Shown here one piece after another: positions 48,602-50,390 of a stretch of DNA of 64,000 nucleotides (position 1 is the stretch's first letter; each line of letters opens with the position of its first letter). The position numbers and the translations under genes were made by a program. The notes beneath the pieces are model-generated. The model searched no databases, was not told where the DNA came from, and saw only the letters and a program-made list of their open reading frames with translations. Source of the stretch: Candidatus Firestoneibacteriota bacterium (GTDB lineage: Bacteria > Oederibacteriota > Muellerivitia > Muellerivitales > Muellerivitaceae); the NCBI GenBank assembly GCA_013286205.1, contig JABDGD010000009.1, forward strand, positions 3,759 through 67,758, written 5' to 3'.

Positions 48602-50221
48602 TTAAGTTCGGTCCAATTTATAAATTTTCAGTTTTCGGTAAAGCGTCGCCACACCCATGCCCATCAGGGCCGCAGCCTTGACCCGGTTGCCGTCGGTTTT
48701 TTCCAGGGCATTTAAAATACATTCTTTCTCCACATCCTTTAAAAAGCGCGGTTCACCATTGCTGGAAACATTCGCGGTGATCTGCCGGACTTCCGGCGGA
48801 AGATCGTCCACCTCCACACGATTGCCCTTTGCCAAAGCCACTGCCCGCTCCATGGAGTTCCCCAGTTCACGCACATTGCCAGGCCAGGAATAAATCAACA
48901 ATTGATCAGCGGCAGCGGCAGTGAGGCCCTCTACTTTTCGTTTCATGTGGCTGGCCGCTTCCGCCAGAAGCAGTCGGGCCAGCGGAAGAATGTCCTCACG
49001 ACGGCGGCGCAAAGGCGGAACCGCCAGTTCAACCACGTTGAGCCGGTAATAAAGATCTTCTCTGAATCTTTTTTCGGTTATTTCTGTTTTTAAATTCTTA
49101 TTGGTGGCGCTCAAGATGCGCACGTTGATAGGACGGCTCTTATTCTCGCCAACCCGCCGCACTTCCCTCTCTTGCAGCACACGAAGCAGTTTCACCTGCA
49201 TGGGGAGACTAACTTCTCCGACCTCGTCTAAAAAGAGGGTTCCCCCGTGGGCCGCTTCGAAAAGACCTGGTCGATCAGCAGCCGCGCCAGTAAAAGCCCC
49301 GCGGACATGGCCAAAGAGTTCGCTTTCCAACAGACTTTCCGTAATAGCACCGCAATTGACGGCAATAAAAGGACCATCCACCTGCGCGGAATTGTCATGA
49401 ACAAAACGGGCAATCCGTTCTTTTCCCGATCCGCTTTCCCCTGTAATCAATACCGTGGAGTTGATGCCCGCGATAGTTTTAGTCAACTCTATTAAATGAC
49501 GCATCTCAGGACTGCGGGCCATTAGTTCCGTGGGGTCTTCGTCAATCTTGGCGATCACCGCCAGTTTGCGCGTTTTTTCACGCAATTCGTTTTCAGCACG
49601 TTTTAAATTTTCGGTAACCGTCCTGAGCGCTTCGTCAACTCCCATCCGTTTGAAAAAAGCCACGTCATTTTCAGCATCGGAGTCCATCTCGTGGGGAAGC
49701 TTGATAATCACATGGCAGAAAGCGTCTCCCTTTCCCATGCACTTGTCCTCAACCGCGTAGACTTCTTGATCCAGTGAATAGCTTAAGTATCCGCTGATAA
49801 ACCCGCAAAGAGTCCAGCACACAGGCCTGTCCGAGCGGCCCTTGAGAAGAATTTGCTGTTCCGCCTCACTCGAAACACGCCAGGTTCCCCCCTTGGGGCC
49901 AAAAGTCTCACCGCTGGCCTGATCCATCATAAAAAGACCCTGCATCGCCAAAATGCGGGCGCCGGCTTTGAGCCAATCCTCAGTGCTATCCCACTTGAAC
50001 TTGGATTTCAGCGCTAAAGCCATCCGCCGTCCATGCACATATCCAAAACGATTGAGGACGCCCCGCGTTGTTTTTTCACCGACGATATCAATGAGTTCTT
50101 GTCGCATTAATCCATGAGAAACGGTGTCGCAAATCATGGCTCTTTGTCCGGCAAAATGTACAGTTCCCGTCTCCGGGTTCAATTCCAAGAGCTCTTTTAA
50201 GTCCAGATCTTCAGCACGCAC
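48602..50221 (-). CDS. Sigma-54-dependent transcriptional activator (EBP) with XylR-N/V4R sensor domain
   Basis: The N-terminal V4R signature is CWTLCGFISGYLSYSLDQEVYAVEDKCMGKGDAFCHVIIK. The AAA+ core has GESGSGKERIARFVH, the GAFTGA loop and LFLDEVGE. The C-terminal Fis-type HTH is NRVKAAALMGMGVATLYRKLKIY. Confidence 0.9.
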   Translation of the reverse strand: MRAEDLDLKELLELNPETGTVHFAGQRAMICDTVSHGLMRQELIDIVGEKTTRGVLNRFGYVHGRRMALALKSKFKWDSTEDWLKAGARILAMQGLFMMDQASGETFGPKGGTWRVSSEAEQQILLKGRSDRPVCWTLCGFISGYLSYSLDQEVYAVEDKCMGKGDAFCHVIIKLPHEMDSDAENDVAFFKRMGVDEALRTVTENLKRAENELREKTRKLAVIAKIDEDPTELMARSPEMRHLIELTKTIAGINSTVLITGESGSGKERIARFVHDNSAQVDGPFIAVNCGAITESLLESELFGHVRGAFTGAAADRPGLFEAAHGGTLFLDEVGEVSLPMQVKLLRVLQEREVRRVGENKSRPINVRILSATNKNLKTEITEKRFREDLYYRLNVVELAVPPLRRRREDILPLARLLLAEAASHMKRKVEGLTAAAADQLLIYSWPGNVRELGNSMERAVALAKGNRVEVDDLPPEVRQITANVSSNGEPRFLKDVEKECILNALEKTDGNRVKAAALMGMGVATLYRKLKIYKLDRT

Positions 50222-50291
50222 GAGTAACTTCCTTGCTAAACCGAGTCATTTCAGGGATTCATCTATTTATCTGTGATGTGGGTACTATTAA

Positions 50292-50307
50292 AGCAAGTCT
50301 CGTGCCT
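50292..50307 (-). promoter_or_regulatory. Sigma-54 (-24/-12) promoter in front of the EBP gene
   Basis: The minus strand reads AGGCACGAGACTTGCT, 72 nt upstream of ATG 50221. Confidence 0.75.
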
Positions 50308-50358
50308 ATCATTTATATAGCTAAAGAGCATTTTGGTTTCTCGAAACAGGAAAAAGAA

Positions 50359-50390
50359 TCATTGTGATCTGCGGCTACCTATCGTATTGA
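50359..50390. promoter_or_regulatory. Candidate EBP enhancer (UAS) dyad (degenerate)
   Basis: TCATTGTGA-N14-TCGTATTGA. Further related 9-mers are TCATTTATA (50309) and GCATTTTGG (50328). Confidence 0.45.

What the first reader, a model, noticed from the sequence alone, without database searches (positions are those of the whole stretch)
48602..50390. V4R/XylR-N-type sigma-54 activator behind its own sigma-54 promoter and UAS-like sites (autoregulatory hub?)
The only transcription factor in the window is a 539-aa bEBP. It has a V4R small-molecule-binding sensor (CWTLCGFISGY...EDKCMGKGDAFCHVIIK), a GAFTGA AAA+ core and a Fis-type HTH. Its gene is preceded by AGGCACGAGACTTGCT (50292) and by TCAnnnTGA-like 9-mers at 50309, 50328, 50359 and 50382. 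This suggests positive autoregulation and makes it the obvious candidate regulator of the whole promoter set. V4R-type EBPs (XylR, DmpR, TouR) are known as aromatic-effector sensors for catabolic operons. Control of a stress and envelope gene set would be a new role.
Basis: partly seen in the sequence, partly recalled or inferred. Interest (0 to 1): 0.7.

Follow-up and report, generated by a model that had tools for sequence, protein, structure and literature searches.

The report
Self-activating sigma-54 stress-regulon activator
A sensor-bearing sigma-54 activator of the XylR/DmpR type sits among at least 16 sigma-54 promoters for stress and envelope genes and has the same paired binding sites before its own promoter; because this layout recurs in distant uncultured bacteria, it is very probably the master switch of that gene set, not a regulator of aromatic breakdown.

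Summary
Window 48602-50221 (-) encodes a 539-aa bEBP with XylR_N, V4R, a sigma-54 AAA+ core (GAFTGA), a lid and a Fis-type HTH. A sigma-54 promoter (AGGCACGAGACTTGCT, 50292-50307) lies 70 nt upstream.

The motif is the palindrome ATCAnnnTGAT (best form ATCAAAATGAT). It usually occurs as a pair 20-25 bp apart, 45-140 bp upstream of the promoter. It precedes 16 of 17 sigma-54 promoter candidates in the window.

Loci around EBP orthologues (63-77% identity, GC 48-70%; an FCPU426 MAG and Planctomycetota-labelled MAGs) carry the same promoter and pair modules. A pirin-like gene is a near-constant neighbour. There are 17 pairs in 262 kb, against none in 802 kb around unrelated EBPs.

The EBP's own sigma-54 promoter is conserved in three lineages. 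A second clade has a different upstream block.

Best reading: a XylR/DmpR-type activator with an altered ligand pocket that drives a general-stress and envelope regulon and amplifies itself. All of this is computational; binding, activation and the effector are untested. It is a new variant of a known kind.

The parts
48602..50221 (-). bEBP gene, 539 aa, GTG start
   Evidence: ORF; Pfam architecture; 63-100% identical orthologues
49925..50203 (-). XylR_N part of the sensor (A) domain, residues 7-99
   Evidence: Pfam PF06505, E 5.7e-24; aligns to the MopR, PoxR and DmpR(CapR) sensor domains, E 2.6e-15 to 1.9e-12
49700..49855 (-). V4R part of the sensor domain, residues 123-174, with Zn-site residues C135, E158, C161 and C169 plus an extra C139
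   Evidence: Pfam PF02830, 36 bits against a cut-off of 31. MopR C155/E178/C181/C189 align with C135/E158/C161/C169. All four are invariant in 15 orthologues.
49025..49522 (-). Sigma-54 interaction AAA+ core, residues 234-399; Walker A GESGSGKE, Walker B LFLDEVGE, GAFTGA at 49283-49300
   Evidence: Pfam PF00158, E 4.7e-70; sequence; ZraR and NtrC1 structures at E 4e-86 and 9e-80
48770..49009 (-). AAA+ lid domain, residues 405-484
   Evidence: Pfam PF25601, E 2.9e-23
48623..48742 (-). Fis-type HTH_8 DNA-binding domain, residues 494-533
   Evidence: Pfam PF02954, E 4.6e-14
50292..50307 (-). Sigma-54 (-24/-12) promoter of the EBP gene, AGGCACGAGACTTGCT followed by TTAA
   Evidence: It is the conserved block in the window/L003/L095 alignment.
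50358..50368 (.). Promoter-proximal UAS palindrome ATCACAATGAT; centre 56 bp upstream of the promoter 16-mer
   Evidence: PWM 14.6 bits
50381..50391 (.). Distal UAS palindrome ATCAATACGAT, 23 bp from the proximal one
   Evidence: PWM 13.8 bits
45766..46009 (.). Divergent sigma-54 promoters 45766-45781 (-) and 45994-46009 (+) sharing UAS sites 45851-45861, 45875-45885 and 45912-45922. The (-) promoter serves the 1123-aa DUF7948/SBBP gene, OmpA and BON; the (+) promoter serves pirin-like and RR-GGDEF genes.
   Evidence: The pirin promoter type TGGCTTGnTTCTTGCT plus a site pair is conserved in L006, L009, L090, L091, L092 and L094.
53402..53586 (.). Divergent sigma-54 promoters 53402-53417 (-) and 53571-53586 (+) sharing UAS 53480-53490 and 53500-53510. 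The (-) one heads 52691-53383, CHASE3-GGDEF and the VTT/DedA gene, and may read through into the EBP gene.
   Evidence: No convincing terminator lies between the VTT gene and the EBP gene.
20503..20656 (-). Sigma-54 promoter 20503-20518 with UAS 20625-20635 and 20646-20656, serving the rhodanese, OMP beta-barrel and Fe/Mn-SOD operon
   Evidence: The same gene string lies next to the EBP in L006, L090 and L098.
21028..21206 (.). Divergent sigma-54 promoters 21028-21043 (-) and 21191-21206 (+) sharing UAS 21105-21115 and 21126-21136. The (+) one heads OMP-like genes and the 2954-aa GH94 cyclic-glucan-synthase-like gene.
   Evidence: the same arrangement occurs in L090
33084..33194 (+). Sigma-54 promoter 33179-33194 with UAS 33084-33094, serving a 258-aa unknown
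37478..37596 (-). Sigma-54 promoter 37478-37493 with UAS pair 37565-37575 and 37586-37596, serving a BON protein and two unknowns
39136..39364 (-). Sigma-54 promoter 39136-39151 with UAS 39257-39267 and 39354-39364, serving an ice-binding-like protein
40064..40151 (-). Sigma-54 promoter 40064-40079 with UAS 40141-40151; no clear gene downstream
56421..56570 (-). Sigma-54 promoter 56421-56436 with UAS pair 56539-56549 and 56560-56570, serving a 257-aa unknown, DUF308 and DoxX
58810..59019 (.). Divergent sigma-54 promoters 58810-58825 (-) and 59004-59019 (+) sharing UAS 58877-58887 and 58897-58907. They serve DUF5670, DUF2934 and BON on one side and CsbD on the other.
62201..62339 (-). Sigma-54 promoter 62201-62216 with UAS 62329-62339, serving a 264-aa unknown, a 193-aa protein and an ice-binding-like protein

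Best explanation
The gene encodes a one-component sigma-54 activator of the XylR/DmpR structural type. It has a sensor A domain (XylR_N plus V4R with a Zn site), a coiled B-linker, an AAA+ core with GAFTGA, and a Fis-type HTH.

Shown:
- The domain architecture.
- A sigma-54 promoter 70 nt upstream of the gene.
- A palindrome, ATCAnnnTGAT, that usually occurs as a pair 20-25 bp apart (about two helical turns), 45-140 bp upstream of 16 sigma-54 promoter candidates in the window, including the EBP's own.
- Conservation of these modules and of EBP-pirin synteny in diverged genomes.

Inferred:
- Dimers of the EBP bind the palindromes through the HTH.
- An unknown signal sensed by the A domain relieves repression of the AAA+ core.
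- The bound dimers assemble into a hexamer that remodels the sigma-54 holoenzyme at the nearby promoter. Four pairs serve two divergent promoters each.
- The output is a general-stress and envelope programme: rhodanese-OMP-SOD, BON, CsbD, DUF2934, DoxX, DUF308, ice-binding-like proteins, pirin, OmpA, GGDEF signalling proteins and a cyclic-glucan-synthase-like giant gene.
- Because the EBP gene has its own promoter and pair, and lies downstream of another regulon operon, activation raises EBP levels. This is positive feedback gated by the signal.

The effector is probably not a simple phenol, because two of MopR's phenol contacts are replaced.
For: Architecture and motifs.

Promoter set: 7 exact core matches against 0.62 expected. 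The 17 candidates are all intergenic and correctly oriented. Similarity between them is limited to about 23 nt, so they are not copies of a mobile repeat (family D9).

UAS: enriched 36 against 8 and 59 against 20.6. The centre triplet, which was not used for selection, is about 90% A/T. Distances to the promoter peak at 40-140 bp. PWM sites of 9.6 bits or more lie upstream of 16 of 17 candidates, and the EBP's own pair scores 13.8 and 14.6 bits.

Comparative evidence: in orthologue loci with GC from 48% to 70% the same modules recur. For example, two perfect ATCAAAATGAT sites 20 bp apart lie between the EBP and pirin genes in the 64%-GC locus L009. Pairs number 17 in 262 kb against 0 in 802 kb around 82 unrelated EBP genes. 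Sigma-54 sites with a UAS number 27 of 46 against 7 of 88.

Synteny: a pirin orthologue lies within 6 kb of the EBP in 10 of 12 orthologue loci plus the window. Rhodanese-OMP-SOD, VTT, DUF2934, Usp, GroES/EL and YceI also recur.

Own promoter: conserved in the window, L003 and L095 while the flanks diverge.

Exclusivity: no second EBP in the window or in any orthologue locus table.
Against: - No experiment of any kind supports it. Binding of this HTH to the palindrome rests on co-localisation and co-conservation.
- The rest of the genome is unseen, so another EBP with the same specificity cannot be excluded.
- The orthologue loci come from related lineages, so the contrast with controls could partly reflect taxon rather than regulator.
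- In five orthologues (L006, L090, L091, L092, L098) the EBP has no sigma-54 promoter of its own. Instead it has a single palindrome overlapping a TACAAT hexamer. Positive feedback is therefore not a family-wide trait.
- In the window, both promoters that can feed the gene are sigma-54 type, and no sigma-70-like site was found. The source of basal EBP is unexplained.
- The structure prediction failed (pLDDT 47), so pocket statements rest on a pairwise alignment.
Confidence: 0.7

Rival explanations
1. The palindromes are bound by another protein. Candidates are a different EBP encoded elsewhere, IHF (whose consensus WATCAAnnnnTTR shares ATCAA), or a Crp/Fnr-type factor. On this view the XylR-type EBP is only one more member of the regulon.
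For: The whole genome is not visible. The motif contains ATCAA. Crp-family genes lie near the EBP in L007 and L092.
Against: - The motif is a symmetric palindrome with both arms equally conserved. It comes in pairs two helical turns apart and lies upstream of the promoter, not between a UAS and the promoter. That fits HTH dimers, not asymmetric IHF.
- The Fnr/Crp spacing (TTGAT-N4-ATCAA or TGTGA-N6-TCACA) does not fit.
- No other EBP or DNA-binding protein recurs next to the modules, whereas this EBP always does.
- No pairs occur around 82 other EBP genes.
Confidence: 0.15
2. The EBP binds the pairs and controls the regulon, but the site pair at its own gene does not give positive feedback. 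The gene is mainly transcribed by read-through or an unrecognised sigma-70 promoter, and binding is neutral or repressive, as with XylR at Pr or PspF.
For: Five orthologues have a single palindrome overlapping a -10-like TACAAT and no sigma-54 promoter. That looks like negative autoregulation. There is no terminator between the upstream VTT gene and the EBP in the window.
Against: In the window, L003 and L095 a high-scoring sigma-54 promoter with the regulon's extended CTTGCTTTAA signature lies 45-70 nt before the start codon. It is the best-conserved upstream block. Its UAS pair has typical spacing and distance.
Confidence: 0.1
3. It is an ordinary aromatic-effector regulator (XylR/DmpR/MopR-like) for a catabolic operon that lies outside the window. 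Its position among stress genes is coincidental.
For: The best full-length NCBIfam match is the phenol regulator MobR (327 bits). The sensor aligns to MopR, PoxR and DmpR, with the Zn site, W134, Y165 and the G-hinge conserved.
Against: - The MobR score is far below its cut-off of 999.
- No monooxygenase, dioxygenase or meta/ortho-cleavage genes occur in the window or in the 11 orthologue loci with gene tables.
- The phenol contacts H106 and Y176 are replaced by Leu and Ala.
- The stress-gene neighbourhood is conserved across GC 48-70%.
Confidence: 0.04

Closest known systems
XylR / DmpR(CapR) / MopR / PoxR: NtrC-family one-component EBPs with a XylR_N-V4R sensor
   Same: Same five-part architecture. 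The Zn ligands, W134, Y165 and the G148 hinge equivalents are conserved. It has GAFTGA. Palindromic UAS sites occur in pairs upstream of sigma-54 promoters; that XylR and DmpR use paired inverted repeats is from my own knowledge.
   Different: - Only about 30-40% identity in the sensor.
- The phenol anchors H106 and Y176 are replaced.
- There is an extra conserved Cys139.
- There are no aromatic catabolic genes.
- There are at least 16 target promoters for stress and envelope genes, rather than one or two catabolic operons.
- It has its own sigma-54 promoter, whereas xylR is transcribed from sigma-70 promoters and represses itself (from my own knowledge).
NtrC (glnALG, glnAp2): a sigma-54 activator that raises its own synthesis from paired enhancer sites
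   Same: Two adjacent dimer sites nucleate the active oligomer. The activator gene lies downstream of a promoter it activates, which gives positive feedback (from my own knowledge). It controls many promoters.
   Different: NtrC is a phosphorylated response regulator, whereas this is a ligand-type one-component sensor. The regulon content is nitrogen assimilation rather than stress and envelope genes.
Sigma-54 stress activators PspF, RtcR, ZraR, NorR
   Same: A sigma-54/EBP pair devoted to stress or envelope functions. This fits the 'sigma-54 controls the bacterial exterior' theme (PMC3162934, listed).
   Different: Those activators control one or two operons each and use other sensor modules. 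None has a XylR_N-V4R domain.
General stress sigma systems (sigma-B, sigma-S, EcfG): a functional analogy only
   Same: The target set (CsbD, BON/OsmY-like, SOD, Dps/ferritin, Usp, chaperonins and small DUF2934-type proteins) resembles their regulons.
   Different: The mechanism differs entirely: an enhancer-dependent sigma-54 with one ATPase activator, instead of an alternative sigma-70-family factor with partner switching.
In-silico sigma-54 regulon surveys in Planctomycetota (PMC12316311; Studholme & Dixon 2004, not held)
   Same: They already predicted sigma-54 promoters before GroES/EL, Usp, MscS, protease and EBP genes in Planctomycetia.
   Different: In the text I could read, they name no activator and no enhancer motif, and they do not link to a XylR_N-V4R EBP.

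Membership tests
Bacterial enhancer-binding proteins (sigma-54 activators) | AAA+ core with Walker A and B matching the Sigma54_activat model | tested here: met
   PF00158, E 4.7e-70 over positions 2-167 of 168; GESGSGKE and LFLDEVGE in the sequence; ZraR and NtrC1 structures at E 4e-86 and 9e-80
Bacterial enhancer-binding proteins (sigma-54 activators) | GAFTGA sigma-54 contact loop | tested here: met
   GAFTGA at residues 308-313. G308, F310, T311, G312 and A313 are invariant in 15 orthologues, and position 309 is Ala or Ser.
Bacterial enhancer-binding proteins (sigma-54 activators) | C-terminal DNA-binding HTH | tested here: met
   HTH_8, E 4.6e-14, residues 494-533
Bacterial enhancer-binding proteins (sigma-54 activators) | ATP-dependent activation of sigma-54 promoters | not testable with these tools
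   Requires biochemistry or genetics. Only candidate target promoters were found.
XylR/DmpR-type (XylR_N-V4R sensor) EBPs | N-terminal XylR_N plus V4R sensor domain | tested here: met
   PF06505, 84 bits (cut-off 23); PF02830, 36 bits (cut-off 31); MopR, PoxR and CapR at E 2.6e-15 to 1.9e-12
XylR/DmpR-type (XylR_N-V4R sensor) EBPs | Structural Zn site (MopR C155, E178, C181, C189) | tested here: met
   These align with C135, E158, C161 and C169, which are invariant in the family. The role of the site is taken from PMC9556785.
XylR/DmpR-type (XylR_N-V4R sensor) EBPs | Aromatic or phenol pocket residues (MopR H106, W134, Y165, Y176) | tested here: not met
   W134 to W114 and Y165 to Y145 are kept. 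H106 to L91 and Y176 to A156 are lost (alignment; residue roles). This comes from a pairwise alignment only; the 3D model failed.
XylR/DmpR-type (XylR_N-V4R sensor) EBPs | Adjacent aromatic or hydrocarbon catabolic operon as the target | tested here: not met
   No such genes in 64 kb of the window or in the 11 orthologue loci with gene tables
XylR/DmpR-type (XylR_N-V4R sensor) EBPs | Membership of a named equivalog (MobR, etc.) | tested here: not met
   Best full-length NCBIfam hit is MobR at 327 bits against a cut-off of 999. No NCBIfam model reaches its cut-off.
Positively autoregulated sigma-54 activators | A sigma-54 promoter with the activator's own enhancer sites upstream of its gene | tested here: met
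   Promoter 50292-50307 plus pair 50358-50368 and 50381-50391. The promoter is conserved in L003 and L095. It is not present in L006, L090, L091, L092 or L098.
Positively autoregulated sigma-54 activators | Transcript and protein level rise on activation | not testable with these tools
   Needs expression data

The most novel reading that the evidence does not exclude
This EBP family is the single master switch of a sigma-54-based general stress response in candidate phylum FCPU426 and in Planctomycetota. It would be an enhancer-dependent functional counterpart of sigma-B, sigma-S or EcfG. A XylR-type 'aromatic' sensor domain has been re-tuned, with an enlarged pocket and an extra cysteine at the metal site, to read an endogenous or environmental stress cue. 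That cue could be a quinone or polyphenol, a membrane-derived hydrophobic compound, or redox state. The ever-present pirin-like partner would act on that same cue.
Probability: 0.35. Interest if true: 0.8.

Novelty: new variant of a known kind. Interest (0 to 1): 0.6.

Why it matters
XylR/DmpR-type activators are textbook single-pathway sensors of aromatic pollutants and are widely used as biosensor chassis. Here the same scaffold appears to run a large, conserved stress and envelope regulon in uncultured lineages that have no genetic system.

It gives a concrete and cheap set of things to test: an 11-bp palindrome, a 539-aa protein, and at least 16 promoters. From these one could define how these bacteria mount a general stress response and what sigma-54 is for in them.

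It also puts a name and an enhancer motif to earlier purely statistical observations that sigma-54 promoters precede chaperone, Usp and membrane genes in Planctomycetia. It would broaden the known ligand and signal range of the V4R sensor fold.

Tried and rejected
- Metagenome scan with the orthologue alignment. It used generic EBP peptides and returned 80 non-orthologous EBP loci (AAA+ core only, 39-52% identity). These were useless as orthologues, so I reused them as the control set.
- Genome-collection scan. It gave only one true orthologue (L003).
- AlphaFold2 on the 15-sequence alignment. Mean pLDDT was 47, so it was unusable. No fold search was run, and pocket statements rest on the phmmer alignment to MopR.
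- Rfam on the whole window: nothing.
- Sigma-70 promoter scan around the gene: none found, so basal expression is unexplained.
- Mobile-repeat idea for the promoter modules: rejected, because similarity is confined to about 23 nt of the promoter itself (D9).
- IHF and Fnr/Crp readings of the palindrome: rejected on symmetry, pairing and spacing.
- The weak HTH-like tblastn hit at 37617-37685 (E 1.4). It has no ORF and was treated as chance or a relic.
- Literature: no paper found that names this regulator or motif. Studholme & Dixon 2004 could not be read.
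Full report
1. What is at the coordinates

The longest ORF over the finding is 48602..50221 on the minus strand. It has a GTG start, encodes 539 aa, and has an AAGGAAG ribosome-binding site 6 nt upstream.

Pfam gives this architecture:
- XylR_N, residues 7-99, E 5.7e-24
- V4R, residues 123-174, 36 bits against a cut-off of 31
- Sigma54_activat, residues 234-399, E 4.7e-70
- AAA_lid_14, residues 405-484
- HTH_8, residues 494-533

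GAFTGA is at residues 308-313 (window 49283-49300). No NCBIfam model reaches its cut-off. The best full-length match is the phenol regulator MobR, at 327 bits against a cut-off of 999. The protein therefore belongs to no named equivalog.

Among solved structures, the AAA+ core matches ZraR and NtrC1. The N-terminal 200 residues match the sensor domains of MopR, PoxR and DmpR/CapR, with E-values from 2.6e-15 to 1.9e-12.

2. The promoter

AGGCACGAGACTTGCT lies at 50292-50307 on the minus strand, 70 nt before the GTG. The core GGCAC-N5-TTGC occurs 7 times in the window against 0.62 expected, and none of 100 shuffles reached 7. With a relaxed pattern I count 17 intergenic candidates, each pointing at the next gene 20-95 nt away. 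They share an extended CTTGCTTTAA signature.

The repeat finder recovers the same elements as a 23-nt family with no extended flanking similarity (D9). They are therefore promoter-sized motifs and not copies of a mobile element.

3. The upstream sites

Reading the 220 nt upstream of each candidate showed a recurring ATCAAAATGA...TCATTTTGAT. The unit is the 11-bp palindrome ATCAnnnTGAT.

Enrichment:
- ATCAAAATGA with up to 1 mismatch: 36 hits against 8.05 expected.
- Arms with up to 1 mismatch: 59 hits against 20.6 +/- 2.8.

A matrix was built from 62 sites upstream of sigma-54 candidates in the window and the orthologue loci. The centre triplet was not used for selection, yet it is about 90% A/T. 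Both arms are equally conserved. Site-to-promoter distances pile up at 40-140 bp.

With that matrix, 16 of the 17 candidates have a site of at least 9.6 bits at 50-210 bp. Most have a pair 20-24 bp apart. Four pairs sit between divergent promoters and can serve both.

The EBP's own promoter has ATCAATACGAT (50381-50391, 13.8 bits) and ATCACAATGAT (50358-50368, 14.6 bits), 23 bp apart. Their centres lie 79 and 56 bp upstream of the promoter 16-mer.

4. Is it the only regulator here?

tblastn with the EBP finds no second AAA+ activator in the 64 kb. Pfam scans of the ORFs I tested, plus the gene table of the identical public contig, show no other DNA-binding domain. Two GGDEF signalling proteins flank the gene: RR-GGDEF at 46956-48473 and CHASE3-PAS-GGDEF at 51101-52627.

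5. What the promoters drive

- Rhodanese, OMP beta-barrel and Fe/Mn-SOD (promoter 20503)
- OMP-like genes and a 2954-aa GH94 cyclic-glucan-synthase-like protein (21191)
- BON proteins (37478, and the operon ends downstream of 45766 and 58810)
- Ice-binding-like proteins (39136, 62201)
- A DUF7948/SBBP giant protein and OmpA (45766)
- Pirin-like and RR-GGDEF (45994)
- CHASE3-GGDEF and VTT/DedA (53402)
- DUF2934 (53571, 58810)
- DUF308 and DoxX (56421)
- CsbD (59004)
- The EBP itself (50292)

There is no aromatic or hydrocarbon catabolic gene anywhere in the window.

6. Relatives

The protein is exceptionally well conserved. 120 listed cluster representatives have 63-100% identity, and some are labelled Planctomycetes or Planctomycetota. 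The closest genome hit is a candidate division FCPU426 MAG at 73% identity (L003).

I fetched 12 orthologue loci, with GC from 48% to 70%. Their neighbourhoods repeat the window's gene content: Pirin_C_2, VTT, rhodanese-OMP-SOD, DUF2934, DUF5670, ice-binding-like, YceI, ferritin/Dps, Usp, GroES/EL, hemerythrin, PAS kinase with RR, GGDEF, and in L090 the same giant glucan-synthase gene.

A pirin orthologue lies within 6 kb of the EBP in 10 of the 12 loci. None of the 11 loci with gene tables contains another EBP.

7. The modules are conserved with the EBP

Sigma-54 promoters with the palindrome upstream recur in these loci, for example:
- L009 (64% GC): two perfect ATCAAAATGAT sites 20 bp apart between the EBP and pirin genes.
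- L091: ATCAAAATGAT and ATCATTTTGAT at -91 and -70 bp before a TGGCTTGCTTCTTGCT promoter for STAS-pirin.

The pirin promoter type (TGGCTTGnTTCTTGCT, or a TGG(T/C)-type variant, plus a pair at -59/-80 or -70/-91) is shared by the window, L006, L009, L090, L091, L092 and L094.

The failed metagenome scan had returned 80 loci around non-orthologous EBPs. With L004 and L005 these gave an 802-kb control set. The comparison:

| Measure | Orthologue set (262 kb) | Controls (802 kb) | p |
|---|---|---|---|
| Single sites per 10 kb | 7.3 | 5.0 | - |
| Pairs 19-26 bp apart | 17 | 0 | 4e-11 |
| Pairs, window excluded | 10 | 0 | 9e-8 |
| Sigma-54 candidates with a site 30-220 bp upstream | 27 of 46 | 7 of 88 | 4e-10 |

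This is the usual comparative-genomics basis for assigning a motif to a regulator: co-localisation, co-conservation, and sites at the regulator's own gene. It is inference, not proof. The contrast could partly be a property of the taxon.

8. Autoregulation

In the window, L003 and L095, the sigma-54 promoter is the one well-conserved block in otherwise diverged upstream regions. UAS sites lie upstream of it in all three.

In the window there is no convincing terminator between the VTT gene and the EBP gene. The operon promoter at 53402 may therefore also feed the EBP.

In a second clade (L006, L090, L091, L092, L098) there is no sigma-54 promoter. A different conserved block is present instead. 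It has one palindrome overlapping a TACAAT hexamer, followed by a conserved hairpin-forming stretch. That looks more like self-repression of a sigma-70 promoter with a structured leader.

Self-control at the gene therefore seems general in the family. Positive feedback through an own sigma-54 promoter is a feature of the window's clade only.

One open point remains. No sigma-70-like promoter was found near the window's gene, so the source of basal EBP is unexplained.

9. The sensor

The alignment to MopR can be read with the residue roles given in PMC9556785.

Kept, and invariant in 15 orthologues:
- Zn ligands C155, E178, C181 and C189 correspond to C135, E158, C161 and C169.
- The G148 hinge corresponds to G128.
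- W134 corresponds to W114.
- Y165 corresponds to Y145.

Lost:
- The phenol-OH anchor H106 corresponds to L91.
- The stacking residue Y176 corresponds to A156.

An extra Cys139 (CWTLC) is nearly invariant in the family.

The allosteric machinery therefore looks intact, but the pocket is not a phenol pocket, and the effector is unknown. The conserved pirin-like (quercetinase-type cupin) partner and the DoxX, YceI, rhodanese and SOD targets suggest a quinone or polyphenol, a membrane-derived hydrophobic cue, or redox sensing at the Cys-rich metal site. This is speculation.

A search of 1.84 billion cluster representatives with the first 200 residues found 1025 relatives at E up to 1e-3 and 38 at E up to 1e-30. 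Their lengths range up to 1347 aa, so the sensor fold also occurs in much longer proteins. AlphaFold on the shallow alignment failed (pLDDT 47).

10. Comparison with what is known

Structurally the protein is a XylR/DmpR-type EBP. It fails the family's functional hallmarks: it has neither the aromatic pocket residues nor a catabolic target operon (see the membership table).

Mechanistically it should work like XylR, DmpR or NtrC. Dimers would bind paired palindromes, a signal would relieve repression, a hexamer would assemble, and the sigma-54 closed complex would be remodelled. The feedback would resemble that of NtrC.

Functionally the target set resembles sigma-B, sigma-S or EcfG regulons.

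A 2025 in-silico survey already noted sigma-54 promoters before chaperonin, Usp, MscS, protease and EBP genes in Planctomycetia. It named no activator or enhancer motif. A 2004 analysis of Pirellula EBPs could not be read. I found no paper describing this regulator or motif.

11. Verdict

It is a new variant of a known kind: a XylR-type activator repurposed as the self-amplifying hub of a large, conserved sigma-54 stress and envelope regulon. Confidence in that reading is about 0.7, and interest is 0.6.

Noticed in passing
L006:9730-10003, L098:9730-10003, L090:9760-10003, L091:9740-10003, L092:5600-5875: A second clade of EBP orthologues has no sigma-54 promoter upstream. Instead there is a conserved block, GAGAGTACAATCAAATTGATCAAAAGG, in which one palindrome overlaps a TACAAT hexamer. 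It is followed by CCGGCCCCGGAGAATGTCC...GAATCCGAACCAAG-[variable loop]-TTTGGTTCAACC.ACTCGGCC, which folds as a conserved hairpin inside an outer GGCC stem (only 2 covarying pairs). This may be self-repression of a sigma-70 promoter plus a structured leader.
   Followed up: partly
window 21028-21206, 45766-46009, 53402-53586, 58810-59019: Four pairs of back-to-back sigma-54 promoters each share one UAS pair lying between them. One bound activator assembly could therefore fire in both directions.
   Followed up: partly
window 39857-40151: The sigma-54 promoter at 40064-40079 (-) has a perfect-arm palindrome (40141-40151) upstream but no obvious gene downstream. There is only a 39-aa ORF at 39857-39976. 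It may drive a small protein or a non-coding RNA.
   Followed up: no
window 24209-33073 (+); L090:1-4936: A 2954-aa GH94/glucoamylase cyclic-beta-glucan-synthase-like gene sits at the end of an operon headed by a sigma-54 promoter with a UAS. The same arrangement occurs next to the EBP orthologue in L090.
   Followed up: partly
window 38618-38913 and 42640-43400: Long arrays with 12-nt periodicity (GTATTGGTCGCC-like) encode Thr/Asn/Ala-rich TNTA repeats. They occur in the ice-binding-like protein (37993-39075) and in the 1123-aa DUF7948/SBBP protein. The latter also has roughly 200-210-nt beta-propeller repeats at 43473-44807.
   Followed up: no
window 18944-19311 vs 60997-61334; 60144-60350 vs 61585-61791 vs 38239-38290: Paralogous gene segments of 71-73% identity lie inside the regulon (OMP-like and ice-binding-like genes). 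This indicates duplication of regulon members within the island.
   Followed up: no
window 37617-37685 (-): A weak translated similarity (E 1.4) to the EBP's C-terminal HTH (..KLKIYKLD..) lies just upstream of the UAS pair of promoter 37478. There is no ORF. It is either chance or a relic of an EBP gene.
   Followed up: partly
window 49805-49819 (residues 135-139, CWTLC): Cys139 is nearly invariant in this EBP family but absent from MopR (CWMLL). With it, four Cys plus Glu158 and His170 cluster at the metal site. This may be a redox- or Fe-S-type variation of the structural Zn site.
   Followed up: no
window 36246-36261 (-): This is the only sigma-54 candidate without any UAS match (TGGTACTTCGTTTGCC, before a 231-aa unknown). 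It may be a false positive, or it may depend on a different activator.
   Followed up: no
window 2632-6251 (-): A second VTT/DedA, PLD-type, rhodanese and DUF4403 gene string lies here without a recognisable sigma-54 promoter. DUF4403 also recurs near EBP orthologues (L090, L095).
   Followed up: no
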